From: an uncultured Desulfobacterales bacterium
GTDB lineage: Bacteria > Desulfobacterota > DSM-4660 > Desulfatiglandales > HGW-15
DNA: 64,000 nt
Reading direction: 5' to 3'
Assembly (NCBI GenBank): GCA_964647905.1
Contig: CAZYJR010000019.1
Coordinates: forward strand, 928-64,927
In this document: piece after piece, positions 2,483-56,790 of the stretch
Position numbering within the stretch: position 1 is the first letter of the stretch
How the letters are laid out: each line of letters starts with the position of its first letter
The notes under the pieces: model-generated
What the model saw: only the letters and a program-made list of their open reading frames with translations
Told to the model about the DNA's origin: nothing
Database searches by the model: none
Position numbers and translations under genes: made by a program

Positions 2483-2511
2483 GGTCGGAGGGATGCCCGG
2501 ACGGCATTGGA

Positions 2512-2548
2512 GGGCGGGCCCCTTTTGCAGGGCGCCGCCCGGTTTTTT
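2512..2548 (+). terminator. intrinsic terminator after etfA
   Basis: GC-rich imperfect hairpin GGGCGGGCCCC-TTTTGCA-GGGCGCCGCCC followed by GG and a T6 run (2543-2548). Confidence 0.65.
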
Positions 2549-2619
2549 CAGGGCTGCGGCTGATTATTTGATTGACAAGGGGCCCTGCCGGGATAGACTA
2601 AAAGGTTGTAGGCAGCTGT

Positions 2620-2696
2620 GGCGGTGTAGCTCAGTCGGTCAGAGCATACGGCTCATATCCGTAGTGTCACTGGTTCAAGTCCAGTCACCGCCACCA
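2620..2696 (+). tRNA. tRNA-Met (anticodon CAT); could instead be tRNA-Ile2 if the C34 is lysidinylated
   Basis: 77-nt cloverleaf folded by hand. Acceptor GGCGGTG/CACCGCC, D-arm GCTC-AGTCGGTCA-GAGC, anticodon arm TACGG-CTCATAT-CCGTA, T-arm ACTGG-TTCAAGT-CCAGT, discriminator A, encoded CCA. G1-C72 pairs, so it is not an initiator. Confidence 0.9.
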
Positions 2697-2715
2697 TACC
2701 CGATTAACAGGGGTG

Positions 2716-2745
2716 TTGACAATCGCGCCCCGCGCCTTATTGTAT
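2716..2745 (+). promoter_or_regulatory. candidate sigma70-type promoter (TTGACA ... TTGTAT/TGTATA)
   Basis: Perfect -35 TTGACA at 2716-2721. An AT-rich -10-like ATTGTATAT lies 17-19 nt downstream, just upstream of the 2781 CDS. Confidence 0.35.
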
Positions 2746-2780
2746 ATCGGCCCCCTTTCCTTTCCCGGGAGTCGTGGACC

Positions 2781-3317
2781 ATGGGTGCTAGGGCTTGCTT
2801 CGAATCCAAAGAGATTGAAACGGTCAGCGAGGCACTGGATATAGCCGAGGACCGCATAGCAGGCCACTACAAGTTCTCATTCGGACAGTGGAAGCGTCAC
2901 AGGTACGGGGTAAAGACGCTGAGCCAGTTGATCGCCGAGGAGATAGCCCCCGAGCCCGCATTCGCGCTCCTGCACAAGTACTCCGCGGAGGACCGGGCCC
3001 TTGAGCCGGGGCGAGCGAAGAAAGACTTCTACGCCATCTGCCTTCAGGACCACCGCATTCTGGGGGCCCTGGCGAGGGATCAGCGCCTTAGACTTCTGCC
3101 CTTGATGGTGTATGTCTTCGGACATGAGTTGATACATATAGTTCGTTTTTGCAACTTTTATCAGCGTTTCGAGGTAAGGGGCGAGGGCAGAAGGCAGGAA
3201 GAGGAAATAGTCCACACAATCACCCTGGAGGCCTTGAAGGGGCTCCAGATGGCGAACATGGAGTACATCCTGGCTTCATACAGGGCGCACGCACTCTGCG
3301 ACCTGGTTGAATCATAA
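2781..3317 (+). CDS. hypothetical protein with HExxH motif (possible metallopeptidase-like)
   Basis: The track ORF 2493-3317 overlaps the tRNA. The first ATG downstream of the tRNA is 2781 (MGARACFESKEIE..). It contains ..VFGHELIHIVRF... No family recognised. Confidence 0.5.
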   Translation: MGARACFESKEIETVSEALDIAEDRIAGHYKFSFGQWKRHRYGVKTLSQLIAEEIAPEPAFALLHKYSAEDRALEPGRAKKDFYAICLQDHRILGALARDQRLRLLPLMVYVFGHELIHIVRFCNFYQRFEVRGEGRRQEEEIVHTITLEALKGLQMANMEYILASYRAHALCDLVES

Positions 3318-3672: not shown

Positions 3673-4221
3673 ATGAAAAGATTCGGCAGTGGCAACGTCC
3701 AAGACAAGATAATCGACAAGCTGGAGCGCAAGGAGAAGCAGGAGTCTTTCCAAAGAGACCGCTTCTTCCGATTCAAGCTACCGGAAATACACACGCGTCT
3801 CTCCCAAGTGCTCCTGATGGAGAAGGTGATCGAGACCGAGAATCCCTCCGCTGTCTCCGATCTCCTTCTCAAGGGCTTGAAACAGGCCCTCAGGAGCAAT
3901 GAGTTCGACTTCAAGTATTTCATTGCGCCGCTGCGCAGCCTGGTGCCCAGGCCGAACCTCCTGAGCCTGTACGTCACCCAGTACATACTGGAAGTCGTGC
4001 TCACCGATCCCTCGGTCATAGAGGTATACGGTACTGACCTGGACATATACAAAAAGGTCAACGAGGTGATCACCCAGATAAACACGAGCTTCGAACGGGC
4101 CGAAGAAGAGATCACCCGCCAATTGGCCCACAGTAAGTCCTTGGTGCCGGGGAGCAGGGAGTACGAGATAGCCCTGGACCAGCTCTTCAGGAAGAAGCTG
4201 GGAGAGCCCCAGCAGTTGTGA
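3673..4221 (+). CDS. hypothetical protein (182 aa)
   Basis: Clean ORF 10 nt after the FmdB gene with coding-like composition. It may belong to a DUF507-like family, but I cannot verify this. Confidence 0.5.
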   Translation: MKRFGSGNVQDKIIDKLERKEKQESFQRDRFFRFKLPEIHTRLSQVLLMEKVIETENPSAVSDLLLKGLKQALRSNEFDFKYFIAPLRSLVPRPNLLSLYVTQYILEVVLTDPSVIEVYGTDLDIYKKVNEVITQINTSFERAEEEITRQLAHSKSLVPGSREYEIALDQLFRKKLGEPQQL

Positions 4222-4732
4222 TCGCCTGCTCGCGGGCGAGGAGATAACGCTTTATATCCAGCCCGCCTGTGAACCCGCCGAGCCCCCGGCTCGACACCAC
4301 GCGGTGTCATGGAAAGATCAAGGGGAGCGGGTTTCGAGCCATTGCCGTCCCGACGGCCCTGGCGGCCCCGGGGCGGCCCAGGCGGCGGGCGATCTCCCCA
4401 TAGGTTGCAGTGCCGCCGAAAGGGATACTCTGTATCATATGCCAAGCGGCCCGCTGGAACGTTGTGGGGTTTATGTCAAGGGCCAAGTTCGGCGGCGGCC
4501 CACCCCCCATCACCGCTTCGACCGCCTCGGCCAGGGGGCGGTTGGGCCCCTCTCCGGCCAGCACCTCTGCCCCGCTGAATTCAGCCTCCCAAGGGTAGTC
4601 GCGGTCCCAGGGATCCGGGTGCATACATAACTTCAAGGCCCTGGCCCCGGTACTCGAGGAGATCATGTGTACCACCAGATCCCCCACCCTGAGCCCCCAC
4701 TTGTAGAGCACCCCGACTTCTTTCCCTGCCAT
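4187..4732 (-). CDS. ogt: methylated-DNA--protein-cysteine methyltransferase (Ogt/MGMT family) with in-frame TGA at the active-site Cys position (candidate Sec codon, or a Cys-to-stop pseudogene)
   Basis: ORF 4307-4795 ends ..TYGEIARRLGRPGAARAVGTAMARNPLPLIFP then TGA (4307-4309). The same frame continues HRVVSSRGLGGFTGGLDIKRYLLAREQ.. to a TGA at 4187-4189, so the canonical PCHRV motif reads P-TGA-HRV. The start is ambiguous: ATG 4732 (MAGKEV..), or ATG 4666 in an ATGA overlap with the upstream gene's stop. Confidence 0.6.
4277..4295 (-). promoter_or_regulatory. hairpin 3' of the in-frame TGA (candidate bacterial SECIS apical stem-loop)
   Basis: The mRNA reads UGA-CACCGCGUGGU-GUCGAGCC-GGG-GGCUCGGC. 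This gives an 8-bp stem (one G.U pair) and a G-rich 3-nt loop starting ~20 nt after the UGA. Confidence 0.35.
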
Positions 4733-5622
4733 GCGTCCAGTTCCTCCATGCGCTTGTTGATCAGCCTCAATGTCTCGGCTTTGCCGTAAGCCCAACCAGG
4801 GCCGATTATCTCCACTCCCCGGGGCGGGTCGCCGGTCAGCCGTTGGATCACCACCCCGGGCGGGAGGATTTCCAGAAAGCCCGCCACCAGGTCCGCGTAT
4901 TCATCCCTCTCCAGGCAGCGGTAACCGCCCCGGCGGTGGAGTTCGCCCAAGGGACTTTCAGCCACCACATACAGGAGATGGAGCTTGACCCCGCTGACCG
5001 GCAGCCCCGCCAGGAAGCGGGCCGTGTCCAGCATCATCTCCCGGGTTTCCCCGGGCAGACCCAGAATCACATGAGCGCAGACATCCAGACCGCGGCCGGC
5101 GGTCCTCAAGACCGCATCCTCGAAGCAAGCGGCGTCGTGACCCCGCCCGATCGCGGCCAGCGTACGGTCGTGAGCGCTCTGCAGGCCGTACTCCACCCAC
5201 ACCAGGTAATCATAGGCAAAGCAGGAGAGGATATCCAGCACATCATCGCCTGCGCAGTCAGGCCGTGTCCCCACTGAGAGGCCGACCATGCCGGGCGCGG
5301 ATAAGGCTCGCTCGTACAGGCTTCGGAGAGTCTCCAACGGACCGTAGGTGTTTGTGAATGACTGGAAGTAGGCTATGAAGAGCCTGGCTCCGTAGCGGGC
5401 TGAGGCAAAGACCTGACCCCTTCGGACCTGTTCCTCTATTGAAAGCCCCCGCTCCACGAAGGCCCCGTTTCCGCTCCCCCCCCCATCGCAGTAAATGCAC
5501 CCTCCCCGCCCTGATGTTCCGTCCCTGTTGGGGCAACCAAGACCGGCGTCAAGCGGTATCTTCTGGACCCTTTCCCCGAAAAGATCCCGAAGGTAGCCGC
5601 TGTAGTCATTATACCTCTTCAT
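4663..5622 (-). CDS. TIGR01212-family radical SAM protein (YhcC-like)
   Basis: MKRYNDYSGYLRDLFGERVQKIPLDAGLGCPNRDG..GGCIYCD.. matches the N-terminal signature of this family. 319 aa. Confidence 0.8.
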   Translation of the reverse strand: MKRYNDYSGYLRDLFGERVQKIPLDAGLGCPNRDGTSGRGGCIYCDGGGSGNGAFVERGLSIEEQVRRGQVFASARYGARLFIAYFQSFTNTYGPLETLRSLYERALSAPGMVGLSVGTRPDCAGDDVLDILSCFAYDYLVWVEYGLQSAHDRTLAAIGRGHDAACFEDAVLRTAGRGLDVCAHVILGLPGETREMMLDTARFLAGLPVSGVKLHLLYVVAESPLGELHRRGGYRCLERDEYADLVAGFLEILPPGVVIQRLTGDPPRGVEIIGPGWAYGKAETLRLINKRMEELDAWQGKKSGCSTSGGSGWGIWWYT

Positions 5623-41777: not shown

Positions 41778-41845
41778 ATCAAACGGAAACGAACTCTTTC
41801 CTCCTAAAAGGAACCGACCCCACTCCCAGGGTCGGTTCTTTTTTT
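41778..41845 (+). ncRNA. candidate sigma54-dependent small RNA (~68 nt)
   Basis: It is bounded by the predicted TSS, ~12 nt after the -12 GC, and by a strong intrinsic terminator. The 5' ~33 nt (AUCAAACGGAAACGAACUCUUUCCUCCUAAAAG) has no ATG and contains an anti-SD-like UUUCCUCCU. Not checked against Rfam. Confidence 0.45.
41811..41845 (+). terminator. intrinsic terminator (also usable from the minus strand for era)
   Basis: GAACCGACCC-cactccca-GGGTCGGTTC forms a 10-bp perfect stem followed by T7 (41839-41845). On the minus strand the same stem is followed by CUUUUA, 12 nt after the era stop. Confidence 0.8.
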
Positions 41846-41856
41846 CCGGGGGGAGT

Positions 41857-42771
41857 TCAGTATCCGAGACGCCTCATGGCCTTGGCATCGCGGGTCCAGT
41901 TCTTCTCCACCCTGACGCTCAGGTCCAGGTAGACGCGGCTCCCGAACCTCTTCTCCAGGTCCTTTCGCGCCCTCTCTCCTATCCCCCGGACCATGGCCCC
42001 GCCCCTGCCCACCAGGATCTTCTTTTGAGAAGTATTCTCCACGTGAATCCAGGCCGAGATGTAGAGAGGCCGCCCCCCCCCTCGCTCTTCGATTTCGTCC
42101 ACCGTCACCGCCGTTGTGTAGGGCAGCTCCTGGCGCACCAGGGCATAGACCTTTTCCCTTATGATCTCGGCCGCCATGAACTCCTCGGTCTGGTCGGTGT
42201 CCATGTCCTCGGGGAACAAGGGCGGCCCCGGCCGGAGGCGCACTCGGATCTCCCCGAGCAGCAGGTCCAAACCATCCCCCTGAAGAGCTGAAACGGGAAT
42301 CAAGGCCTCGAAGGGGTAGCGCGCCGCATAGGAGTCCATAACGGGCAGGAGGACCTCCTTGGGCCTGGTGTCTATCTTGTTGATTATCAGTATTGCGGGT
42401 CGGCCGCTGCGCCTCAATCGGGAAAAAAGGGTCTCCATGTCCGGATGGTCGGGCCGGCCGGCCTCGACCATGACAGCCACCAGGTCCACTTCATCGAAGG
42501 CCTCCTGAGCCGAGGCCACCATGCTGCGATGAAGTGATGTCCGGGTCCGATGGATGCCCGGTGTATCCATGAAGACCACCTGGCAGCCCTCTTCGTGAAG
42601 GACCCCCAGGATACGGTTCCGCGTGGTCTGGGGCTTTGGGGATACAATGGCCACCTTCCGGCCGAGGATCCGGTTGAGGAGGGTGGACTTGCCCACATTG
42701 GGCGGTCCCACCAGAGCCACGAATCCCGCGCGGAACTCCACCTGTTCGCTGTTCCCGAGGCTTTGTTTCAT
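41857..42771 (-). CDS. era: GTPase Era
   Basis: ..GFVALVGPPNVGKSTLLN.. G1 motif, DTPG, NKID, and a C-terminal KH domain. The start is taken at MKQSLGN (ATG 42771). The track ORF's 82-aa extension is discarded. Confidence 0.9.
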   Translation of the reverse strand: MKQSLGNSEQVEFRAGFVALVGPPNVGKSTLLNRILGRKVAIVSPKPQTTRNRILGVLHEEGCQVVFMDTPGIHRTRTSLHRSMVASAQEAFDEVDLVAVMVEAGRPDHPDMETLFSRLRRSGRPAILIINKIDTRPKEVLLPVMDSYAARYPFEALIPVSALQGDGLDLLLGEIRVRLRPGPPLFPEDMDTDQTEEFMAAEIIREKVYALVRQELPYTTAVTVDEIEERGGGRPLYISAWIHVENTSQKKILVGRGGAMVRGIGERARKDLEKRFGSRVYLDLSVRVEKNWTRDAKAMRRLGY

Positions 42772-45172: not shown

Positions 45173-46411
45173 GTGGCGAAAAAGAGATCTCCGAAAAGGA
45201 AGAAGAGTAAAGACAAGACGGCGACCCTCCGGCCCGAGGAAGCGGCCCGGCTCGAAGGGCTCCTGGCTCGCGCCCATGACCTGGATCCGTCCGGGATCCG
45301 GGATGAACTAGGCGGGCCGGAAACCGCCGCGGCCTTCCTGCAGAGGCTTCCGGCGGCTGACCCCGAGCTGGTTCCCTTGCTGGGCGCGATAAGGGAGGCA
45401 TACCAGGAAAAGGAGGTCCGAAAAGCCCTTCGCAGGGCGGCCTTCAGGTTTGAGCAGAAGGGTATACCCGTCCCGGATGAAACAGAGAAAGACCCCCCGG
45501 CGCTTCGAGCGGTCCCCGGGACTCAGGAGGCGTTCGCCTATCTCACTCCTTTCGAGGCCCTCGGCGACAGGAGCGTCCTTCTGGCCGCCCCCTCACCATC
45601 CTTTCAATTGACCATGTGTGTGGGAATAGTACACGACCTTGAAGGGATAAAGACCATGACGGCCCTCCCCTTGAACAGGAAAAAGGCTAGGGAAGCCAGG
45701 AATGTATTCCTCCAAGACTTCCCTCACGCAGTGGAGGCCTCGCCGGGGCATGCCCTCGGGGTCCTGGAAAGGGCCTACCAGGCCGATCGATCATCGCCCG
45801 GGGCATCCGATTACCTGCAACTGAGGCCTTTGCTGCTCTCAGCCTTGGGGCCCGGGGAAGAGGCCCCGATTCAGGGTCTGATCCCGCCGGATTCAGGGGC
45901 CGGGCTCCCTTTCACCGAATCAATGGCCGCCCGACTTATGGACCACGAGCTCTTCAGGGACTGGATACTGGACCCGGAGGAAGTGGACCCCCTGGCCGAT
46001 GAGATCCGGGAGGCTGAAGAGAGCCCCTTGCATCTTACTCAAGAGCAGGTATCGGCCAGGGTGGAGGAACTGGAGAAGAAGGCCGTCCAGCGGATCTTCA
46101 CGGAGACGAGACGCAATGCCTACCGGTTCCGGCTGGCGGAATCCGCTTACATCCTCCACATGAGAGGGGAGGAGGAGTATGCGCGCCTGGCCCTCAGGGC
46201 CGCCCTCAGCCTGGATGAGCCCGACTCCCTTTTCCAGGTTAATCCCTTCCTGATGCTCCTCACCCAGCGGTGCCTTGCCATGGCCTACGAGGAACCGGAG
46301 ACCGAGCAAGAGCCCCTTGAACCCGCAGGCCCTCAGCAAAGCCTGACCCTGCCCGGATTGAATCCCGATCCCTCAAGCCAGTCCCGGACCGCCCCCAACA
46401 GGAGCCGGTAG
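45173..46411 (+). CDS. hypothetical protein (412 aa, Lys-rich N-terminus)
   Basis: Long clean ORF starting 3 nt after the pyrR stop, MAKKRSPKRKKSKDK... No recognisable motif. Confidence 0.5.
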   Translation: MAKKRSPKRKKSKDKTATLRPEEAARLEGLLARAHDLDPSGIRDELGGPETAAAFLQRLPAADPELVPLLGAIREAYQEKEVRKALRRAAFRFEQKGIPVPDETEKDPPALRAVPGTQEAFAYLTPFEALGDRSVLLAAPSPSFQLTMCVGIVHDLEGIKTMTALPLNRKKAREARNVFLQDFPHAVEASPGHALGVLERAYQADRSSPGASDYLQLRPLLLSALGPGEEAPIQGLIPPDSGAGLPFTESMAARLMDHELFRDWILDPEEVDPLADEIREAEESPLHLTQEQVSARVEELEKKAVQRIFTETRRNAYRFRLAESAYILHMRGEEEYARLALRAALSLDEPDSLFQVNPFLMLLTQRCLAMAYEEPETEQEPLEPAGPQQSLTLPGLNPDPSSQSRTAPNRSR

Positions 46412-47235
46412 TAGCGGTTGCCCCCGCCCAGGCCCCGGCGGCCGAAATAGTAGTTGACCTCGAGCAGGATCGGTGAAGGGTCGGGAGCCTCCAAATCGAA
46501 GACCATGTCCACGGCCGCCAGGTTGATTCCCGCACGCTCCCTCAGCTCCATCGCCTGAGCCCTGCCCTTGGCCTGAAGCCCCGGGCGCCATTCCCGGTCC
46601 ACCCGGGCCCCGCGGCTGACAGTGGCCAGTATCTCGCCCTCCCCGGCCCGTTTCCAGTAACTCAGGACCCTCTTCTCGAATATCACGGCCCTCAGGGCGT
46701 TCCCGCCCGAAGGGACCAGGCGCTGGGTCACAAAACCCCCTGAGTCCGAGCGCTCATTCACCTCCAGCATATCCATGATCCCAGCCAGGTCCTCGCGGCG
46801 ATGCACCATCCATACCCCTTCCCCTTCGTGCGTGAAGTCCGCCTTTATAAGGAACGGGGTATCATGTGGAAGGCGTTCCTCTTCCGCCAACCACGCCTTG
46901 AGACTTTGAGCCGAGGGCCAGCACCTGGTCTCCGGATGGGGGAAGCCCAGATCCGCGAACATCCGGGCCTGACCGGACTTGCCGGGATAAGCGAAGCGGG
47001 GCCCGTAGCAGGGAAAGAGCACCGCCCCGGAGGATTCGGCGGCCCGATAAAGGGCCTCGGAGCAGCTCTGGGGCAGGATTATGGCCTCGGCCCCGGCCAG
47101 CTCCCCGGACAGGACCGAGTCCACCGGCCTGGGGCCCGGAATTATCTGTTTGTCGGCCAGAATCAGGGGGTGGAGAGACAGGATCACCTTCTCGATTTCC
47201 TCCCGGGCTAGTTTGACTTGGCCAGGCACAGGCAT
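46333..47235 (-). CDS. ATP-grasp (RimK-like) family protein
   Basis: The C-terminal half reads ..FLIKADFTHEGEGVWMV..GGFVTQRLV..LRAVIF..AAVDMVFD....PILLEVNYYFG.., which resembles the ATP-grasp fold. The start is taken at MPVPGQVKL (ATG 47235). Confidence 0.6.
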   Translation of the reverse strand: MPVPGQVKLAREEIEKVILSLHPLILADKQIIPGPRPVDSVLSGELAGAEAIILPQSCSEALYRAAESSGAVLFPCYGPRFAYPGKSGQARMFADLGFPHPETRCWPSAQSLKAWLAEEERLPHDTPFLIKADFTHEGEGVWMVHRREDLAGIMDMLEVNERSDSGGFVTQRLVPSGGNALRAVIFEKRVLSYWKRAGEGEILATVSRGARVDREWRPGLQAKGRAQAMELRERAGINLAAVDMVFDLEAPDPSPILLEVNYYFGRRGLGGGNRYYRLLLGAVRDWLEGSGFNPGRVRLC

Positions 47236-47241
47236 TATAGT
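47213..47241 (+). promoter_or_regulatory. sigma70-type promoter TTGACT-N17-TATAGT
   Basis: -35 TTGACT at 47213-47218, a 17-nt spacer, and -10 TATAGT at 47236-47241. It lies ~115 nt upstream of the FmdB-like gene at 47358. Confidence 0.5.
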
Positions 47242-47357
47242 ACGTATTGCGGGATGTACAAGCGCCGCCGCCCGCGACCCGAGAGGGTGCCTCCGGGGGG
47301 CGGCCCGGCGCATCAAGGATCGGCCGTTTCGAGGGCCGGGAAAGACAAGGGATTGAG

Positions 47358-47603
47358 ATGCCTATATACGAGTTCAGATGTGTTCAATGCGGCCGGGTCT
47401 TCGAGAAGATCCTCATGGGCGGAGACGACCAGGTGAATATGGCCTGTCCGGAGTGCTCGGCAACAGAAGTGGAAAGGGTGGTGAGCGTCGCCAACTATGC
47501 CATGGGATCGGTCAATGCGAACAAACAGCCCAAGATAAGCACCAAGTCCTGCAGTCCGGGGAATTCATGCACCACACTGGAGCTCCCCGGTCACAGCAGG
47601 TGA
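47358..47603 (+). CDS. FmdB-family zinc-ribbon protein (second copy in window)
   Basis: MPIYEFRCVQCGRVFEKIL..MACPECSATEVERVVS... The track ORF's 37-aa upstream extension is discarded. Confidence 0.8.
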   Translation: MPIYEFRCVQCGRVFEKILMGGDDQVNMACPECSATEVERVVSVANYAMGSVNANKQPKISTKSCSPGNSCTTLELPGHSR

Positions 47604-47638
47604 CGCGCCGAGCTCGATCTGAAACGGAGCGCCCCTCT

Positions 47639-47884
47639 GTGATAACAAAGCCTGCACAAGTCCCCGAACTGAGCGATGAGGACCGGCTCTTCATCCGGGA
47701 GGTCTTCGAGGAGCGTGTAGTCCCCCGGCTGCGCTCATACCATGCGAGGACGGGATCCTTGGGCTGCGGCTTCGCAGGCCCGGGATACGCCGACTGGGTC
47801 GCCTGCTTCCGTTCTTCCGGCGACGGCTATGAGATCACCGATCTCGAGTATGACCCCGACGCCCGGGGGCTGGATCTGGGATGA
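47639..47884 (+). CDS. hypothetical small acidic protein (81 aa)
   Basis: GTG 47639 is the first plausible start after the FmdB stop, in the frame of track ORF 47378-47884. Its stop overlaps the next start (ATGA at 47881-47884). The sequence ..LSDEDRLFIREVFEERVVPRLRSY.. has coding-like composition. Confidence 0.4.
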   Translation: MITKPAQVPELSDEDRLFIREVFEERVVPRLRSYHARTGSLGCGFAGPGYADWVACFRSSGDGYEITDLEYDPDARGLDLG

Positions 47885-49011
47885 AGGTCAACATGGATTC
47901 CTTTTTCGACCGTAAATTCCTCGGGCGGGAGGTGATCAAACGCCCCGCCTGCCCCTTCTGTGGTCTGATCATAGGCCCGCCGGTGGAGCTTTCCACACGC
48001 AGGGGAGGGGAGCTCCCAGTAGGGTCATGCACCTGCGGGGCGGTCTATGCCTGTGACGAGACCGGCAGAAACGCGGGATCCGCCCAGGTCGAGGCCCTGG
48101 TGTTCGCGTGCGACATGGATTGGGACCTGGCCTGGGACCTCCTCCCGGACGAGGACTACCGCCAGGAGATGGTGGAGCACTATGATTACATGAACCACCT
48201 GGTGATCCCCGGGGGATTCTTCGAGAGCAGGCGTATCTCGGGCGTGCTCTTTTTTGTGAGGCTTCATGACGATGTCCTGGAGGTCACGGCCGGCGGGGTT
48301 AGAAAGCGCCTGGGCCGGGCCGGGCCGGCCAAGGCCCCACCGAGCCGAGAGGCGGGCAAGGGGCCCAAGGCTTCACGCCCTCTCACCAAGCAGGAAGTTG
48401 AGAATTACGTGCGGGAGTACCGCATGGAGCCCTTGATCGAGGCCGCGCCCACGGACCGCAAGCTGATAAGGACAATACAGAGGCTCCTCTACACCGGGGA
48501 CGAACTCATGCGGCGGAGGGCCGCCGACGCCCTCGGCCGGGTGAGCGCCGTCTTGGGCGAGACGAACCCTGGGGCGGTATCCAGGCTGCTCCAGGGATTC
48601 TTCTACTCCATAACCGACACCGCTGCATCCAGTTGGGGGGCGTTCGAGGCCATCGGGGAGATCGTCTGGCGCCGACCCGAATTCTACGGCGGCTACCTCC
48701 CCCAGCTCTTCCAGTTCCTCGGTGATCCCACCCGCCGCTCCCCCAGCCTGGAGGCCATCGCCTCGGTCGCCCAGGTCCGGCCCGACCTCCTGCGCAAGTA
48801 CACCTTCCACTTCCAGGTCTACTTGGGGGACGAAAACCCTTCGGTCAGGGGCCATGCCGCCCGGTTGATGGGCAGCCTGGGCGCGCGGGAGATGAAAGAG
48901 GACATCGAGAGGCTCCTCCCGGACACCCACGGGATCAGCATTTATCACGAAGGGGAGTTCCAAGAGCGGACAGTGGGTCAACTCGCCCGCGAGGCATTGG
49001 CCAATCTATGA
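47881..49011 (+). CDS. hypothetical protein: N-terminal Cys-cluster (zinc-ribbon-like) domain + C-terminal HEAT/ARM-like helical repeats
   Basis: ..RPACPFCGLIIGPP..GSCTCGAVYACDE.. followed by repeated ..RRRAADALGRV.. / ..VRGHAARLMGSLG.. helices typical of HEAT-like repeats. Both ends are ATGA-coupled to the neighbouring genes. Confidence 0.6.
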   Translation: MKVNMDSFFDRKFLGREVIKRPACPFCGLIIGPPVELSTRRGGELPVGSCTCGAVYACDETGRNAGSAQVEALVFACDMDWDLAWDLLPDEDYRQEMVEHYDYMNHLVIPGGFFESRRISGVLFFVRLHDDVLEVTAGGVRKRLGRAGPAKAPPSREAGKGPKASRPLTKQEVENYVREYRMEPLIEAAPTDRKLIRTIQRLLYTGDELMRRRAADALGRVSAVLGETNPGAVSRLLQGFFYSITDTAASSWGAFEAIGEIVWRRPEFYGGYLPQLFQFLGDPTRRSPSLEAIASVAQVRPDLLRKYTFHFQVYLGDENPSVRGHAARLMGSLGAREMKEDIERLLPDTHGISIYHEGEFQERTVGQLAREALANL

Positions 49012-50147
49012 AAGCCGCTTACTCGGCCGCCTCCCCGGAAGGAGGCATCCCCCTGGGAGACCGTGAGCTGGAGGCGTCCTTCCTCACCAAACCCGGACGG
49101 GCCCATCCCTTCCTGACCCTGGGAGACTATTTCAGGGCGCTAAACCGATTCATCTCGGACCTGGTTGATCGCAACGCAATACCGGGAGTTTCAGGGGAGC
49201 CGGAGCGGCTGGCCATAAGGAGCGAAAAGCACGGGGCGTTCGCCCACATCGCGAGCATCGAGATAGTATCAGGGGAGCGGCGGGTCAATCTCTGCACTGC
49301 CGCCGCTCTTTCCGGTGGCGGCGGAGAGGCCTTGGAGCGGGAGTACCAAACCCTGCTGAGACTGGCGAGCTCCCCTGGGTCCCCTTATCTTCCCCACCCG
49401 ATCGGCCTGGAGGAGATCTCTCTCGGCCCCGGCGGGCGGGAGAACCTCACCGTTCTCCTGACCGACTGGTTCGAAGGCTTTCACGAATGGCACCTGCACC
49501 CGGGCGCCCCGGGATCACCGCCAGGGGTCCTGGTTTGGGACCATACATCGGGCCACCGCAGGGCCGAGGCCGCCGAGATCGAGCGCCTGTTCGAGGAGGC
49601 GGCCCGGATCCTCACCCTGTGCTACGAACCGGAGACTTTCGATCAGATCACCATGTGGCACCATGCAGCAGGGGACTTCATTATCAGGAGCACCCCGGAC
49701 GCCTCTGAAGTGCGCCTGTGCACGGCCAGGGACTTCGCCCCCTTGCCCGGGATCGGCGCTGCGGAGACCACGGCCCCGGTGGCACTGGTCTACTTCCTTC
49801 TCAACACCGTCCTGAGGATGCGCCTTGACAAACGCGACGGGGTGGGGGAAGCGGTTTGGGCGGGAGAAGGGGTGGTAAGGCCGTCGGTGGCGGGCTTTTT
49901 CAAGGGAATACGATCCACAGGGGCCGCCTCCCGGGCTGGAGTGGGGAACCCCGAAGACCTGCTGGATCTCTTGCGCTCCTTCACCCCGGAAGAGCTCGAG
50001 GGGCTTCACGGCCCGCTCCTCTCCCTCTACCCGGAAGGCGATCCGATGGAGACGGATCTCATGGAAGAGAACCTCCCGGAGCACTCCTTCACTCTGTGGC
50101 GGGTGCTTCGAGAGGCTCGTGTATCAAGGCCTCCAGAGGGGTGGTAA
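49008..50147 (+). CDS. hypothetical protein (379 aa)
   Basis: Clean ORF coupled by ATGA to the preceding gene. No family recognised. ..MWHHAAGDFIIRS.. is faintly reminiscent of a kinase-like catalytic loop, which is speculative. Confidence 0.5.
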   Translation: MKAAYSAASPEGGIPLGDRELEASFLTKPGRAHPFLTLGDYFRALNRFISDLVDRNAIPGVSGEPERLAIRSEKHGAFAHIASIEIVSGERRVNLCTAAALSGGGGEALEREYQTLLRLASSPGSPYLPHPIGLEEISLGPGGRENLTVLLTDWFEGFHEWHLHPGAPGSPPGVLVWDHTSGHRRAEAAEIERLFEEAARILTLCYEPETFDQITMWHHAAGDFIIRSTPDASEVRLCTARDFAPLPGIGAAETTAPVALVYFLLNTVLRMRLDKRDGVGEAVWAGEGVVRPSVAGFFKGIRSTGAASRAGVGNPEDLLDLLRSFTPEELEGLHGPLLSLYPEGDPMETDLMEENLPEHSFTLWRVLREARVSRPPEGW

Positions 50148-50745
50148 GGGCCTTGGAGACCGATATCAACAGCCCGGACCTTGCCGGATCCGCCCCTCCG
50201 GCCTTTTCCACCAGTTCCCTGGACATGTCGAACAGATCCCGGTAGAACCCGTCCAGGTCGAACGCGGGGTAAGACCCGCCCTGCTCGAAACCGGCCAGGT
50301 GGCAGACCCTCGCCCTGCCCTCAATCTTGGCGGGTATGCCGTAGACGCGGCAGGTGATCGGCCTTTGCGCGTAGAGTAAGCATTCCCGCCCCTCGTCGAG
50401 CAGCGGGCACCGGACCCGCTCTGCGGCAAGGAGCTCGTGCCCTCCTTCGGTTGCGCCCTCGGCCTCCCTGAGCCTTCTCTGGATAGAGGCCAGCTCCCGG
50501 TCCGCCCGGTTGCATCTCAGGATCACTTGGGATTTCGCCTCGGCCGGCGCTTGTGCGAAGTGGTACTGCAGGTAGGCGGCTTCAATAAGGAAAAGCCCGA
50601 ATACGGCATGGCAGCAGTCGTCGCAGTGCAGCTCGCAGCGCACACACTCCGGGTAGTCTTCGGACACCTTGCGGAAGGCCTGATCGGCCTTTGCGGCAAG
50701 GGCCTCGTAGCCGCGGAAGAGCTGGGACAGTTCGGCTTCCTTCAC
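50089..50745 (-). CDS. YkgJ-family cysteine-cluster protein (CxxCxxCC / UPF0153)
   Basis: ..ECVRCELHCDDCCHAVFGL.. and ..RCPLLDEGRECLLYAQRPITCRVYG.. are typical of PF03692. The GTG start overlaps the stop of the TPR gene. Confidence 0.75.
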   Translation of the reverse strand: MKEAELSQLFRGYEALAAKADQAFRKVSEDYPECVRCELHCDDCCHAVFGLFLIEAAYLQYHFAQAPAEAKSQVILRCNRADRELASIQRRLREAEGATEGGHELLAAERVRCPLLDEGRECLLYAQRPITCRVYGIPAKIEGRARVCHLAGFEQGGSYPAFDLDGFYRDLFDMSRELVEKAGGADPARSGLLISVSKALTTPLEALIHEPLEAPATE

Positions 50746-51801: not shown

Positions 51802-52989
51802 CTACTCGATCCCGCCGGCCGCCTTGGATACGGCCCAGGCCGAGTCGGTATACTTGAAGTGGGTCGAGGTACGATACGTATCGTATTGCAGGCGATAGTC
51901 GTCGATCAAGTGCTCCGTGAACTCCAGATCGCATTTCTCGAAGAACTTTTCCCAGCCTATGCGCTCGGCCCAGTCCCCGATCCGCTCGTACTTCCTGGCG
52001 TCCCTGGCATATGCCTCCACGATCTTCTTAACGTCCCTGCATACCTCGGGATACCTGGGGAAGTTGTTCGGCAGAAACGGCACGACCACCTTGGAGAACT
52101 TCGGGGGGGTGATCCGGTTGGAGATCTTGCCCCCGGCCAGGATCGTAACCCCGTCGCCTTCCTTGTCCGAAAGCGGCAAAGCCATACACATGGTATAGCA
52201 GTTGCCGCAGAACATGCAGCGCTCTTGTTTGATCTTGACGGTTTTCTTTCCGTCTTCGGTCTTGGACGGAGATATGGCCGCCGTGGGGCAGGCCGCTATG
52301 ACCAGCGGGATCTCGCACACCTGGTCCAGGACCTGGTTGTCCACGATCGGGGGCTTCCTGTGGTAGCCCAACAGCGCGATGTCCGAGCAATGGACCGCCC
52401 CGCACATGTTGAGGCAGCAGGCCATTGAAATACGGACCTGTGCGGGGAACGTCATGCCCTGGAACTCCTCGAAGAGATCGTCCAGGACCGCCTTCACCAT
52501 GGAGGAAGCATCGGTCGCCGGGGTATGGCAGTGGATGTAACCCTGGGTGTGGACGATATTGGTCAAGCCCGCGCCGGTCCCGCCGATGGGGAACTTGTAG
52601 CTTCCTGATACGTGCTTGCGGCTCTGGAGGTCCTTCTTGAGGGCCTCCATCTTGTCCTGGCTGTCCACCATGAACTCGATATTGTTCCGTGTGGTGAACC
52701 TGACATAACCGTTGCAGTGCTTGTCGGCTATCTCGCAGATCTCCCTCACGTGCTCCACGGTCATGAACCGGCATCCTCCGCAGCGGACCGTGAAGACCTT
52801 GTCCCCTGTCTCGGATACGTGCACCAGCACGCCCGGCTCCAGGATCTCATGGTATTTCCACTTACCGTAGTTGTTCTGGATGATCGGCGGAAAATACTGC
52901 CAGAAGTGCCGCGGACCCAGGTCCGTCAGCCTGTTCTCCATCGGTTTGTCCGGATTGTAGCGTCCAAGCCTTTCTTGAGATAATGCCAT
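51802..52989 (-). CDS. dsrB: dissimilatory sulfite reductase, beta subunit
   Basis: ..[28 protein letters not shown].., ..[18 protein letters not shown].., ..[14 protein letters not shown].., and ferredoxin insert ..[18 protein letters not shown]... 395 aa. Confidence 0.95.
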
Positions 52990-53001
52990 GATTGCTCCCT
53001 C

Positions 53002-54420
53002 CTATCTCGCATGTCTGGAACGGTACTCGTCTATGGTTCGATCCCAACCGCCCGGCACGTCTTCTTCCTTCCAGAAGATGTAAGGATTGCTCCTGGGCTC
53101 CTTGACCATTTGCGGCATGGGCGGTACGCCGAGGACTTCCAGGAATTTGGGGATGCCGTAGCGCTGAATCAGCTCGCCCAGCCGCTCCCGGTTCTTTCCT
53201 TCCTCCATCCACCAGTCCCAGACCTTTTCGATCACTTCCTTGATATTGTCGTAAGGAGGCTCCGCCTTCATGAACGGGATGGTGAGGACCGACATCTGTG
53301 CGCCTTCCAGGATGGGCGCCTTGGCCCCGAACAGCAGGCTCACGCCGGTGTCCTTACCGGGACGGAGCGCCTGGGGCATGACGTTGATGCAGTGCATGCA
53401 CCGGTTGCACTCCTTGTCGTCGATCATGAGCTTGTCGCCCTCCATCCACATGCACTGGGTCGGGCAGAGTCCGATCACTTCCTTCTCAATATCAAACTTG
53501 CCCCAGTCGCGGCCCGCATGGGCACCGGCATTGGGTGCTATTTCTCCGCCCACATATGCCTTTACCGCCTCCTGGTCGATGCGGATCTCGTCGCGCCAGG
53601 TCCCTATGAAGGACATGTCCGCCCTGGCGATGGAAGCCACGCATCCGTTGGAGCAGCCGTCGAACTTGAACTTGAACTTGTAAGGGAAGGCGGGGCGGTG
53701 CAGCTCATCCTGGTAGTGGTGGGTCAACTCATAGCACATGTCCTGGGTGTCATAGCAGGACCACTCGCAGCGGGCCCTGCCGATGCAGCAGGACGGGGTA
53801 CGAAGGTTGGATCCCGATCCGCCCAGGTCCTGCTGGAGTACGTGGCCCAGTTCGTAGAAAATGGGCTCCAGCTGCTCGGTAAAAGTACCCAGGAAGATGA
53901 TGTCCCCGGTTGACCCGTGTATGTTCATCATGCCGCTTCCGCGGTATTCCCAGAGGTCACAGATGGTACGAAGATAATCGGTATCGTAAAACTTGCTGGC
54001 AGGCTGATTGACACGGAGTGTATGAAAGTGGGCGATTGAAGGAAAAGTTTCCTGCATATCGGAGTAACGGCCAATCACGCCGCCCCCGTATCCGAACACC
54101 CCAACGATTCCGCCGTGCTTCCAATGGGTCTCGCCGTGGTCAAACGAGAGCTGGAGCTGCCCCAGCATGTCCTCTACGACCTCGGCGTTGATCATCATCC
54201 TCTCCTTGGGCAGCTTGTGCCGCCTCAAGGCCTCCCTCTTGGCGTCCGCCACAAAGCTGGGCCAGGGGCCTTTTTCCAGCTCATCGAGGTCCGGGATGTT
54301 GTGCTTACATTTGAATTCCTTGAGTTCGTCTTCGGTGTAATTATTCAACTCCTCGTCGGAGTAAATCCGAAGCTCCTCATATTTGAGTTTGGTTTGTTCT
54401 TCTTTAGGTTCAAAAGCCAT
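53002..54420 (-). CDS. dsrA: dissimilatory sulfite reductase, alpha subunit
   Basis: ..GPWPSFVADAKREA.., ..THWKHGGIVGVFGYGGGVIGRY.., ..GGSGSNLRTPSCC.., ..FKFKFDGCSNGCVASIARADMS.., ..CNRCMHCINVMP... ATG 54420 is preceded by AAGGAGG. Confidence 0.95.
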   Translation of the reverse strand: MAFEPKEEQTKLKYEELRIYSDEELNNYTEDELKEFKCKHNIPDLDELEKGPWPSFVADAKREALRRHKLPKERMMINAEVVEDMLGQLQLSFDHGETHWKHGGIVGVFGYGGGVIGRYSDMQETFPSIAHFHTLRVNQPASKFYDTDYLRTICDLWEYRGSGMMNIHGSTGDIIFLGTFTEQLEPIFYELGHVLQQDLGGSGSNLRTPSCCIGRARCEWSCYDTQDMCYELTHHYQDELHRPAFPYKFKFKFDGCSNGCVASIARADMSFIGTWRDEIRIDQEAVKAYVGGEIAPNAGAHAGRDWGKFDIEKEVIGLCPTQCMWMEGDKLMIDDKECNRCMHCINVMPQALRPGKDTGVSLLFGAKAPILEGAQMSVLTIPFMKAEPPYDNIKEVIEKVWDWWMEEGKNRERLGELIQRYGIPKFLEVLGVPPMPQMVKEPRSNPYIFWKEEDVPGGWDRTIDEYRSRHAR

Positions 54421-54640
54421 TATGCTCGCCTCCTTTAGAAAAATAAAAGGTTGGTTCCGCTCCATAGAAGGGGCAACCCCAAGAAATCCGTGTCCGAGTC
54501 TTCACCTCCTCCCCAAGCTGATGTCCAAATTCATCCCGGCACGGGCGCACATTTGCACCCGCCATCGCCGAAGTATTCGCCCTCTGGGTCTTTACCAGCA
54601 ACTAACCGAATTTACTATCCTTTTAAGCAATCAGATTGAA

Positions 54641-54670
54641 ATTTAAATCAGAATACGGCTCAGATGTCAA
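54641..54670 (-). promoter_or_regulatory. candidate sigma70 promoter for dsrABD (TTGACA-N18-TTAAAT)
   Basis: On the minus strand, -35 TTGACA is at 54670-54665 and -10 TTAAAT at 54646-54641. This implies a ~210-nt 5' UTR. The direct repeat TCTGATT occurs twice, 17 nt apart, flanking the -10. Confidence 0.35.
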
Positions 54671-54770
54671 TGAAAAAACCACCCATACGACAACAGTTGC
54701 CATGCGGTTTTCCCTGAATTGCTCGTCCTCCCGGGCCGGCTTCGAGGCGGGGAGGAGGGCGGCATTTGAA

Positions 54771-54799
54771 TTGACAAGAAAGCCTCGAGGTTTTATAGG
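54771..54799 (+). promoter_or_regulatory. candidate sigma70 promoter for dsrN (TTGACA-N17-TATAGG)
   Basis: -35 at 54771-54776, 17-nt spacer, -10 at 54794-54799. It lies ~85 nt upstream of ATG 54885. Confidence 0.45.
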
Positions 54800-54884
54800 C
54801 CAGACAGCAGCTCGAACCAGCCGACCGCCTCACCAGGCAGAGGGCCGGGAGGGGGGCGCGGATCTTGCTTATGAGGGGGATGAG

Positions 54885-56330: not shown

Positions 56331-56356
56331 CATCGGCTATTTTATGGGTTATAGGG
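56328..56356 (+). promoter_or_regulatory. candidate sigma70 promoter for dsrC (TTGACA-N17-TATAGG)
   Basis: -35 at 56328-56333 overlaps the dsrN stop. 17-nt spacer, then -10 at 56351-56356. An AT-rich leader and RBS AAAGGAGG precede ATG 56420. Confidence 0.5.
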
Positions 56357-56419
56357 CAGTATTTGTACGAATCTAAGTGGCTAAAATAAAAGGAATATAG
56401 GAAAAGGAGGTTATTTGTT

Positions 56420-56737
56420 ATGCCCACAGTCGAATTTGAAGGCCACACCTTTAACGTGGACGAAGACGGATTCATCGACGATTTCAACAATTGGAACGAG
56501 GCGTGGGTCCAGTGGGTCAAGAAGCAGGAAGGTATTGAAGAGCTCACTGATGAGCACTGGAAGGTGATCAAAGTCCTTCAGGATTACTACAAAAAGAATG
56601 GAATCGCACCAATGGTAAGGATCCTATCCAAGGTGACCGGTTTCAAGCTGAAGAAGATCTACGAGCTCTTCCCGTCCGGCCCGGGTAAAGGCGCCTGTAA
56701 GATGGCCGGGCTACCGAAGCCCACTGGTTGTGTCTAG
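56420..56737 (+). CDS. dsrC: DsrC (TusE/DsrC/DsvC family sulfur-relay protein)
   Basis: MPTVEFEGHTFNVDEDGF.. with the C-terminal arm ..FPSGPGKGACKMAGLPKPTGCV carrying both conserved cysteines. 105 aa. Confidence 0.95.
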   Translation: MPTVEFEGHTFNVDEDGFIDDFNNWNEAWVQWVKKQEGIEELTDEHWKVIKVLQDYYKKNGIAPMVRILSKVTGFKLKKIYELFPSGPGKGACKMAGLPKPTGCV

Positions 56738-56790
56738 AAGCCTGGAAGAGAGCCGCCGGCACCACTGCGAAACACGAAGGCCCCTAGAAA

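What the first reader, a model, noticed from the sequence alone, without database searches (positions are those of the whole stretch)
4187..4732. Ogt/MGMT DNA-repair methyltransferase with TGA in place of the active-site cysteine codon: candidate selenoprotein or fresh pseudogene
The minus-strand ORF ends ..AVGTAMARNPLPLIFP-TGA (4307-4309). The same frame then continues HRVVSSRGLGGFTGGLDIKRYLLAREQ.. for 39 more codons. That is the conserved MGMT C-terminus (PCHRVV....G.L.G..GG...K..LL..E). The universally conserved alkyl-acceptor Cys of the PCHRV motif is therefore replaced precisely by an in-frame UGA, and everything after it is intact. In bacteria, Sec typically replaces a catalytic Cys, and the SECIS lies immediately 3' of the UGA. 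Here a GC hairpin GUCGAGCC-GGG-GGCUCGGC begins 12 nt after the UGA, and a second small hairpin (GACACC-GCGU-GGUGUC) includes the UGA itself. Sulfate reducers and syntrophs of this lineage are generally Sec-rich. A suicide alkyltransferase using selenocysteine would be mechanistically interesting. The alternative is a single third-position change, TGC or TGT to TGA, making a very recent pseudogene or a sequencing error. I cannot say from memory whether Sec forms of this family are already catalogued.
Basis: partly seen in the sequence, partly recalled or inferred. Interest (0 to 1): 0.7.

Follow-up and report, generated by a model that had tools for sequence, protein, structure and literature searches.

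The report
Selenocysteine form of MGMT repair protein
This gene encodes an O6-alkylguanine-DNA repair protein whose reactive cysteine is replaced by UGA-encoded selenocysteine; relatives show it is a working gene rather than a broken one, but this kind of selenoprotein has been catalogued since 2005.

Summary
The minus-strand frame 4732-4187 is a complete MGMT/Ogt gene, and TGA (4309-4307) sits exactly where PCHRV has its alkyl-acceptor Cys. Tests on this sequence alone were only suggestive. A full-length Cys query at first found only Cys homologues. Searching with the truncated 141-aa product settled it. Thirty cluster representatives end at exactly this column, 20 of them against 7 Cys forms in this 'MAGKE' subfamily. 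All five whose DNA I fetched carry TGA, an intact downstream HRVV..GLGGF..K..LL..E frame, and a bSECIS-type hairpin 19-21 nt after the UGA. Four Cys members of the subfamily lack such a hairpin. Against the closest TGA-bearing relative (61% identity, dS about 1.3), the post-TGA codons have dN/dS 0.125, so they are translated. The reading as a fresh pseudogene or sequencing error is rejected. selA, selB, selC and selD are not in this 64-kb window, so the decoding machinery was not shown. Sec-containing MGMT is a listed selenoprotein family (Carboxydothermus CHY0809, 2005), and an engineered human AGT with Sec145 is active. This is therefore a new member of a known kind. Two side results are modestly new. 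Sec seems to be the commoner state in this Desulfobacterales subfamily, and databases list the Sec forms as ordinary 141-aa proteins.

The parts
4187..4732 (-). Full-length Sec-MGMT coding sequence: 181 residues (141 + U + 39) plus the final TGA stop.
   Evidence: The start at 4732 is confirmed by the shared N-terminus MAGKE in 13 subfamily homologues.
4307..4309 (-). In-frame UGA read as selenocysteine, in place of the alkyl-acceptor Cys of P-C-H-R-V.
   Evidence: It aligns with the catalytic Cys. The same TGA occurs in 5 of 5 relatives whose DNA was fetched. Thirty cluster representatives end at this column.
4276..4296 (-). Candidate bacterial SECIS core: 9-bp stem UGUCGAGCC/GGCUCGGCG with apical loop GGG (4287-4285), 19 nt after the UGA, -13.1 kcal/mol.
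   Evidence: It meets all four constraints of the bSECIS consensus model quoted in PMC13188914 Fig. 2. Equivalent hairpins occur in all six TGA genes and in none of four Cys subfamily genes.
4263..4304 (-). Possible lower extension of the SECIS stem. These are outer pairs in the minimum-free-energy fold.
   Evidence: Support is weak: the outer pairs are only partly kept among relatives.
4742..4747 (-). Shine-Dalgarno-like GGAGGA, 9 nt upstream of the ATG.
   Evidence: Read directly from the sequence.
4663..5622 (-). Upstream gene for a TIGR01212 MnmL/YtqA-type radical SAM protein. Its 3' end overlaps the MGMT start by 70 nt, which suggests an operon with translational coupling.
   Evidence: 332.6 bits, cut-off 180. 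The same overlapping pair occurs in every related locus that extends far enough, whether Sec or Cys.
4197..4213 (-). Terminator-like stem-loop at the very end of the full-length reading frame, not after the internal UGA.
   Evidence: This is a consensus match only and the T-run is poor.
3673..4221 (+). Convergent DUF507 gene whose 3' end overlaps the last 35 nt of the full-length MGMT frame (context).
   Evidence: The same 35-nt overlap and the same ...PASS* tail occur in L092.

Best explanation
The gene encodes a full-length, 181-residue O6-alkylguanine-DNA alkyltransferase (MGMT/Ogt). In it the single-turnover alkyl acceptor is selenocysteine, encoded by UGA 4309-4307. Inferred mechanism: the stem-loop 19 nt downstream (4296-4276, loop GGG) acts as the bacterial SECIS. 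It recruits SelB carrying Sec-tRNA(Sec), so the ribosome inserts Sec and continues through the 39 C-terminal codons. Those codons supply His143, Glu168 and the C-terminal helix of the fold. The selenolate then takes the alkyl group from O6-alkylguanine irreversibly, as the Cys thiolate does in ordinary MGMT. The gene is co-transcribed with, and probably translationally coupled to, an MnmL/YtqA-type radical SAM gene. What was shown here: the TGA, its recurrence in relatives, downstream purifying selection, and the link between TGA and hairpin. What is inferred: SelB-dependent decoding in this organism and alkyl transfer to selenium.
For: 1. The TGA aligns with the catalytic Cys. All 10 invariant columns after it are kept (H143 R144 V145 G150 G152 G153 G157 K161 L164 E168).
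2. A search of 1.84 billion cluster representatives with the truncated product found 30 representatives ending exactly at ...NP(L/V)P(L/I)xxP. In the MAGKE subfamily 20 are truncated and 7 have Cys. The 90%-identity clusters behind them hold up to 17 members, nearly all 141-142 aa, from many samples.
3. DNA from five of these (L092-L096) shows TGA in every case, followed by an intact HRV(V/I)..GLGGF..K..LL..E frame.
4. All six TGA genes have a hairpin that meets the published bSECIS model: 9-10 bp stem, loop GGG/GUG/GGA/GGC/CGGGC, 19-21 nt from the UGA, -7.6 to -16.4 kcal/mol. None of 4 Cys genes of the same subfamily and 8 of 80 other Cys homologues do. Fisher p=4.8e-6.
5. L091 (Cys) and L093 (Sec) encode the same peptide, VVAAGGLGGF. 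Only the Sec gene uses the synonymous codons that pair.
6. Window against L092, the closest Sec relative with the same synteny: dN/dS is 0.125 for codons 143-168 after the TGA. It is 0.168 for codons 90-141 and 0.353 for all pre-TGA codons, at dS about 1.3.
7. A random nonsense change would hit this codon about 1 time in 43.
8. The window carries dsrAB, and the nearest relatives are Desulfobacteraceae and Thermodesulfobacteriota MAGs. The literature ranks this lineage among the most selenoprotein-rich (PMC13188914).
9. An engineered human AGT with Sec145 protects E. coli from MNNG, so Sec works in this active site (PMC4150793).
Against: No selA, selB, selD or tRNA-Sec lies in the 64-kb window or the few kb of flanking contig seen, and no second selenoprotein gene was found there. 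The Sec-decoding trait of this organism is therefore inferred, not shown. On its own the window's hairpin is only moderately unusual. Its z-score is -1.18 against dinucleotide shuffles. Between 2.4% and 3.1% of synonymous recodings fold as stably over the first 42-48 nt (12% over 60 nt). 2.8% of Cys homologues fold as stably. No Rfam SECIS family matches, although Rfam's bacterial SECIS models are family-specific. There is no protein-level evidence.
Confidence: 0.9

Rival explanations
1. Recent pseudogene: a single TGC/TGT to TGA change inactivated the gene, and the downstream codons look intact only because there has been no time for decay.
For: In the first homologue search the closest full-length homologues (45-50% identity) all had Cys. 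Eighty GTDB representative loci all had TGC or TGT. No Sec machinery is visible in the window.
Against: The same stop is shared by about 30 mutually diverged (50% identity or less) cluster representatives and is TGA in 5 of 5 checked. The post-TGA codons are under purifying selection (dN/dS 0.125) between lineages separated by dS about 1.3. SECIS-type hairpins accompany the TGA and are maintained through synonymous and even non-synonymous remodelling. The all-Cys picture arose because a full-length query ranks truncated products lower.
Confidence: 0.03
2. Sequencing or assembly error at 4307-4309.
For: None beyond it being a single-base difference from a Cys codon.
Against: The TGA is identical in three independent Logan assemblies, one of a slightly different haplotype, and in five unrelated assemblies of relatives.
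Confidence: 0.005
3. The UGA is decoded, but not as Sec. One option is near-cognate read-through: Trp would give an ATL-like PWHRV motif, and Cys would restore the normal enzyme. The other is that the 141-residue truncated protein is itself the functional product, a damage-binding protein without transfer activity.
For: UGA followed by C is an uncommon context among true stops here (2 of 25), and from general knowledge it is a leaky one. ATL proteins with Trp at this position exist (Atl1 3gva matches at 1e-8).
Against: Simple leakiness needs no hairpin, yet a SECIS-type hairpin is tightly associated with the TGA state. The truncated product would lack His143, Glu168 and the C-terminal helix, yet those codons are under strong purifying selection. 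TGA is the normal stop in this genome (25 of 43 genes), so the code has not been reassigned.
Confidence: 0.05

Closest known systems
Sec-containing methylated-DNA-protein-cysteine methyltransferase (Carboxydothermus hydrogenoformans CHY0809 / ABB14497.1; also sequences from the Olavius symbiont and GOS metagenomes)
   Same: Same Pfam family (PF01035). Sec is encoded by UGA in place of the alkyl-acceptor Cys, with a stem-loop directly downstream. The family is listed in PMC1287953, PMC1976440, PMC2398784, PMC9312934 and PMC13188914.
   Different: The lineage differs: Desulfobacterales (Thermodesulfobacteriota) rather than a Firmicute. This gene belongs to a distinct 'MAGKE' N-terminal subfamily fused in an operon to an MnmL/YtqA radical SAM gene. 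Here Sec is not a one-off, as the 2005 paper thought for CHY0809, but appears to be the commoner state in the subfamily. I could not obtain the CHY0809 sequence, so direct orthology was not tested.
Canonical Cys MGMT/Ogt/Ada-C (M. tuberculosis OGT 4bhb, E. coli Ada-C 1sfe, human AGT 1eh6)
   Same: The C-terminal DNA-binding and active-site domain matches. The Asn hinge (N134), P-x-H-R-V, the conserved Tyr111 and Arg125 columns, and Glu168 are all kept. Suicide alkyl transfer is presumed.
   Different: The nucleophile is encoded by UGA. The N-terminal domain is too diverged to match Pfam PF02870.
Engineered human AGT C145U (PMC4150793)
   Same: Sec at the same active-site position. It was shown experimentally to protect E. 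coli from MNNG.
   Different: It is artificial, inserted by EF-Tu at a UAG codon without a SECIS. The gene here is a natural UGA/SECIS gene.
Alkyltransferase-like (ATL) proteins (S. pombe Atl1 3gva, E. coli YbaZ)
   Same: Same DNA-binding fold, and the catalytic Cys is absent from the genetic text.
   Different: ATLs encode Trp or Ala at the position and lack the N-terminal domain. Here the codon is UGA with a SECIS, and the closest homologues are true transferases.

Membership tests
MGMT/Ogt O6-alkylguanine-DNA alkyltransferase (PF01035 / TIGR00589) | Match to the DNA-binding/active-site domain above the curated cut-off | tested here: met
   PF01035 109.9 bits (cut-off 27), residues 92-169 spanning the TGA. 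TIGR00589 101.9 bits (cut-off 46.4).
MGMT/Ogt O6-alkylguanine-DNA alkyltransferase (PF01035 / TIGR00589) | Active-site motif P-C-H-R-V with a nucleophile at the Cys position | tested here: met
   The motif reads P-[UGA]-H-R-V. The flanking residues are invariant and the nucleophile is encoded as UGA, read as Sec. This counts as met only if the UGA is decoded as Sec or Cys.
MGMT/Ogt O6-alkylguanine-DNA alkyltransferase (PF01035 / TIGR00589) | Asn hinge, His and Glu of the active-site network, and the conserved Tyr and Arg of the DNA-binding face | tested here: met
   N134, H143, E168, Y111 and R125 are invariant columns in alignment A1. Their equivalence to human N137, H146, E172, Y114 and R128 is inferred from the family alignment.
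MGMT/Ogt O6-alkylguanine-DNA alkyltransferase (PF01035 / TIGR00589) | Stoichiometric transfer of the alkyl group from O6-alkylguanine to the protein | not testable with these tools
   This needs biochemistry. An engineered Sec145 human AGT is active in vivo (PMC4150793).
Bacterial selenoprotein (SelB/SECIS-dependent UGA recoding) | In-frame UGA aligned with Cys in homologues | tested here: met
Bacterial selenoprotein (SelB/SECIS-dependent UGA recoding) | UGA recurs at the same column in diverged orthologues, with a conserved downstream frame | tested here: met
   Thirty representatives end at the column. Five of five fetched genes have TGA and an intact downstream frame.
Bacterial selenoprotein (SelB/SECIS-dependent UGA recoding) | Purifying selection on codons after the UGA | tested here: met
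   dN/dS 0.125 for codons 143-168, window against L092.
Bacterial selenoprotein (SelB/SECIS-dependent UGA recoding) | [quoted passage not shown] | tested here: met
   Loop GGG, 9 bp, 19 nt, -13.1 kcal/mol. The model is permissive: 8% of all TGAs in the window meet it. The stronger evidence is the association of 6 of 6 Sec genes against 8 of 84 Cys genes.
Bacterial selenoprotein (SelB/SECIS-dependent UGA recoding) | selA, selB, selC (tRNA-Sec) and selD in the same genome | not testable with these tools
   None lie in the 64-kb window or flanks.
Bacterial selenoprotein (SelB/SECIS-dependent UGA recoding) | Selenium in the full-length protein | not testable with these tools
   Needs 75Se labelling or mass spectrometry.
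Rfam bacterial SECIS families | Covariance-model match | tested here: not met
   No match even at E up to 10 on 4180-4340. This is not informative, because those models are built from other selenoprotein genes.
ATL (alkyltransferase-like) proteins | Trp or Ala encoded at the catalytic position, and a single-domain protein | tested here: not met
   The codon is TGA, an N-terminal domain is present, and the best matches are true transferases.

The most novel reading that the evidence does not exclude
In this Desulfobacterales MGMT subfamily selenocysteine is the prevailing, long-maintained state, and the protein is an obligate partner of the MnmL/YtqA-type radical SAM enzyme whose gene overlaps its start. 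The pair would then do something other than classic stand-alone suicide DNA repair. Two possibilities are radical-SAM-assisted removal of the methyl group from Se-methyl-selenocysteine, which would make the transferase regenerable, and action on alkylated tRNA. Only the gene linkage and the predominance of TGA forms among cluster representatives are observed. The functional link is speculation.
Probability: 0.06. Interest if true: 0.75.

Novelty: new member of a known kind. Interest (0 to 1): 0.3.

Why it matters
The main value is corrective and comparative.

1. The gene should be annotated as a 181-residue selenoprotein. Dozens of database entries for its relatives are truncated at the Sec codon and named as ordinary 141-aa MGMT proteins or hypothetical proteins.

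2. Natural Sec and Cys versions coexist in one subfamily, sometimes encoding the same peptide around the SECIS. This is a clean natural experiment on two questions. One is why a cell would spend selenocysteine on a single-turnover protein. The other is how a SECIS evolves inside a constrained coding region. Here it occurs in two pairing registers, one created by Ala-Ala to Ser-Ser replacements.

3. The existence of Sec-MGMT does not change what is known. It has been in the literature since 2005, and an engineered Sec-AGT has been shown to work.

Tried and rejected
1. Rfam at gathering threshold on the window, and at E up to 10 on 4180-4340, found no SECIS family. This is uninformative.

2. Single-sequence folding statistics were only suggestive. 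The hairpin gave z=-1.18 against dinucleotide shuffles. Between 2.4% and 3.1% of synonymous recodings were as stable over 42-48 nt (12% over 60 nt). 2.8% of 72 Cys homologues were as stable, or 6.9% after GC correction.

3. The homologue search with the full-length U-to-C sequence listed only Cys proteins apart from the window's own product. This wrongly suggested that the TGA was unique. Truncated products simply scored below the 120 listed.

4. A search with the N-terminal 106 aa found only the window's own protein, because of the word-index limit. That search was wasted.

5. The genome-contig scan returned 80 loci, all with TGC or TGT. The organism itself is not among the species representatives.

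6. My metagenome pattern scan was mis-specified. It had 17 Ns instead of 16, which put Asn-Pro out of frame, so its three hits were chance and its negative result is void. One search shows that the pattern misses even the window. The corrected pattern hits all 8 Sec loci and none of the other 88. The scan could not be repeated. The corrected pattern found nothing in viral contigs.

8. A search for a second selenoprotein gene or Sec machinery in the window and contig flanks found nothing.

9. A literature search for the SRR run accessions found nothing.

10. I rejected the small hairpin that contains the UGA as evidence. It follows from the CAC (His) and GUG (Val) codons and occurs in the Cys gene L088.

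Full report
**Observation**

On the minus strand an ATG at 4732-4730 opens a frame of 141 codons. A GGAGGA sits 9 nt upstream of it. The frame ends ...NPLPLIFP, then TGA at 4309-4307. The same frame continues HRVVSSRGLGGFTGGLDIKRYLLAREQAITTAGALPASS to a second TGA at 4189-4187. With Cys written for the internal stop, Pfam PF01035 matches residues 92-169 straight across it (E=5e-32). TIGR00589 'ogt' gives 1.4e-29. The best solved structures are true alkyltransferases: M. tuberculosis OGT, Ada-C and human AGT. In all of them the TGA aligns with the Cys of PCHRV. TGA is the normal stop in this window, used by 25 of 43 annotated genes, so the genetic code has not been reassigned. The same TGA is present in three independent assemblies, SRR7048218, SRR7048219 and SRR7048227. 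One of them is a haplotype differing at two sites in 8.8 kb. This rules out an assembly error.

**First-pass tests were ambiguous**

The 9-bp hairpin UGUCGAGCC-GGG-GGCUCGGCG (4296-4276) begins its loop 19 nt after the UGA. [quoted passage not shown] That model is permissive. Of all 1947 TGA trinucleotides in the window, 8% satisfy it and 0.9% have a hairpin as good as this one.

- Against dinucleotide shuffles the local fold is unremarkable (z=-1.18).
- Against 3000 synonymous recodings, 2.4-3.1% are as stable over the first 42-48 nt, and 12% over 60 nt.
- Against the same slot in 72 Cys homologues, 2.8% are as stable.
- A homologue search with the full-length sequence returned only Cys proteins besides the window's own product.
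- Eighty genome loci all had TGC or TGT.

At that stage a strain-specific nonsense mutation could not be excluded. One argument stood against it: only about 1 in 43 possible single-base nonsense changes in this gene would fall on this codon.

**Decisive comparative evidence**

The all-Cys picture came from using a full-length query, which ranks truncated gene products lower. I searched 1.84 billion cluster representatives with the 141-residue truncated product. Thirty of the best 150 end exactly at ...NP(L/V)P(L/I)xxP, the residue before the catalytic column. Among proteins that share the window's N-terminal domain (the 'MAGKE' subfamily), 20 representatives are truncated there and 7 are full-length with Cys. 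One caveat applies. Clustering may treat short and long proteins differently, so this ratio is indicative only.

The clusters behind these representatives contain up to 17 members from many samples, and nearly all are 141-142 aa. NCBI names them as ordinary MGMT proteins or hypothetical proteins of Desulfobacteraceae, Desulfobacterales or 'Deltaproteobacteria' MAGs.

I fetched DNA for five of them, L092 to L096. Every one has TGA at the column. Every one continues in frame with HRV(V/I)..GLGGF..K..LL..E to a later stop. L092 is a Desulfobacteraceae MAG, 61% identical, with the same gene order: TetR, ETF, Zn-ribbon, DUF507, MGMT, radical SAM. Compared with it, the post-TGA codons 143-168 have 9 synonymous and 4 non-synonymous differences, giving dN/dS 0.125. 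The value is 0.168 for codons 90-141 and 0.353 for the whole pre-TGA part, at dS about 1.3. The sequence after the TGA has therefore been translated and selected for a long time.

**The SECIS**

All six TGA genes carry a perfect 9-10 bp stem with a 3-5 nt loop (GGG, GUG, GGA, GGC or CGGGC). The loop starts 19-21 nt after the UGA, and the hairpins score -7.6 to -16.4 kcal/mol. None of the four Cys genes of the same subfamily has a hairpin that meets the model. With the 80 more distant Cys genes included, the association is 6 of 6 against 8 of 84, p=4.8e-6.

L091 (Cys) and L093 (Sec) encode the identical peptide VVAAGGLGGF. Only the Sec gene uses the codons GCC GCC GGG GGA CUC GGC GGU, which pair with each other.

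Two pairing registers exist. L093 to L096 pair GCC-GCC (Ala-Ala) with GGC-GG. In the window and L092, Ser-Ser (UCG AGC) replaces the otherwise conserved Ala-Ala/Ser. These codons pair with the Gly-Leu-Gly codons, which moves the loop 2 nt upstream. These two serines are the only departures from conserved columns after the TGA. Between the window and L092 the loop changes from GGG to GUG and one G-C pair becomes G-U, while the stem is kept.

The second, small hairpin that includes the UGA follows from the His CAC and Val GUG codons. It also occurs in a Cys gene, so it is not evidence.

**Mechanism**

Shown here:
- the UGA at the catalytic column;
- its recurrence in diverged relatives;
- purifying selection on the downstream codons;
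- the link between the TGA state and the hairpin.

Inferred: SelB carrying Sec-tRNA(Sec) binds the hairpin and inserts Sec. The full-length protein then uses the selenolate as a one-shot alkyl acceptor. The Asn hinge (N134), His143 and Glu168 are retained. An engineered human AGT with Sec145 protects E. coli from MNNG, so the chemistry is feasible (PMC4150793).

**Context**

The MGMT start overlaps the 3' end of a TIGR01212 MnmL/YtqA-type radical SAM gene by 70 nt. The same overlapping pair, with overlaps of about 22-70 nt, is found in every related locus that extends far enough, whether Sec or Cys. The last 35 nt of the full-length frame overlap the convergent DUF507 gene, as in L092. A terminator-like stem-loop sits at the end of the full-length frame.

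The window also carries dsrAB, dsrN and dsrC together with housekeeping genes. Its DsrA is 84-90% identical to proteins of uncultured Thermodesulfobacteriota. The literature describes this group as among the most selenoprotein-rich (PMC13188914).

**What is not shown**

No selA, selB, selD or tRNA-Sec, and no second selenoprotein gene, lies in the window or in the few kb of flanking contig I could reach.

**Comparison with what is known**

Sec-containing MGMT was first reported in Carboxydothermus hydrogenoformans as CHY0809 (PMC1287953, 2005). It was then found in the Olavius symbiont and GOS metagenomes (PMC1976440, PMC2398784). It is listed in the 2022 and 2026 reviews of prokaryotic selenoproteomes (PMC9312934, PMC13188914). 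The present gene is a new member of that known kind.

Two points are modestly new. Sec forms appear common, perhaps predominant, in a Desulfobacterales subfamily linked to a radical SAM gene. And those forms are systematically annotated as truncated proteins. The 2005 paper considered CHY0809 a unique, recent invention.

**Errors and dead ends**

My metagenome pattern scan contained one N too many, which put the pattern out of frame. Its negative result is void and the scan could not be repeated. The N-terminal-only search and the structure prediction yielded nothing.

**Verdict**

This is a new member of a known kind, and I score interest at about 0.3.

Noticed in passing
window 4663-5622 (-) with 4187-4732 (-); also L087, L088, L091, L092, L093, L094, L095: A TIGR01212 MnmL/YtqA-type tRNA-modification radical SAM gene always lies directly upstream of this MGMT subfamily. 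Its end overlaps the MGMT start by about 22-70 nt, in Sec and Cys forms alike. I do not know of a described functional link between the two.
   Followed up: partly
P0241-P0426, e.g. MFP3928616.1, MBW2023223.1, PKN66355.1, MDD5204682.1, MBN2374084.1, MBW1910369.1: Many public entries for 141-142-aa 'methylated-DNA--[protein]-cysteine S-methyltransferase', 'MGMT family protein' or 'hypothetical protein' from Desulfobacterales MAGs end exactly before the catalytic residue. They are probably Sec-MGMTs truncated by gene callers.
   Followed up: partly
L096:3001-3460 (Logan ERR15087780 contig, 31 kb): A TGA-containing MGMT with an intact downstream frame and a strong SECIS-type hairpin lies next to cytochrome c oxidase genes (COX3, COX4_pro, SCO1). 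It lacks the MAGKE N-terminus and the radical SAM neighbour. This suggests a separate Sec-MGMT lineage in an aerobic-type organism.
   Followed up: partly
window 4187-4221: The 3' ends of the full-length MGMT frame and the convergent DUF507 gene overlap by 35 nt. The same overlap and the same ...PASS* tail are kept in L092. All differences in the 13 tail codons between the two are non-synonymous for MGMT, as expected if the DUF507 frame dominates there.
   Followed up: partly
window 51802-56740: A dissimilatory sulfite reductase cluster: dsrA 53002-54465 (-), dsrB 51802-52989 (-), a CobB/CobQ-like dsrN 54636-56330 (+), then dsrC (seen in L090). It marks the organism as a sulfate or sulfite reducer. 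DsrA is 84-90% identical to proteins of uncultured Thermodesulfobacteriota.
   Followed up: partly
window 2493-3317 (+) and 2620-2696: The long ORF 2493-3317 contains the tRNA-Met gene within its 5' part, so its upstream part is spurious. The gene called in related contigs is about 178 aa and has no family match.
   Followed up: no
window 41779-41859 (-): A very stable 12-bp hairpin (GAACCGACCCUG-GGAG-UGGGGUCGGUUC, -19.7 kcal/mol) lies about 20 nt after the TGA stop of the Era GTPase gene. It is probably a terminator or a regulatory stem.
   Followed up: no
window 45173-50745 and 58035-60005: Several long ORFs have no Pfam or NCBIfam match (45173-46411, 49008-50147, 50089-50745, 58035-60005). 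They lie beside a DVU0298-family protein (47881-49011).
   Followed up: no
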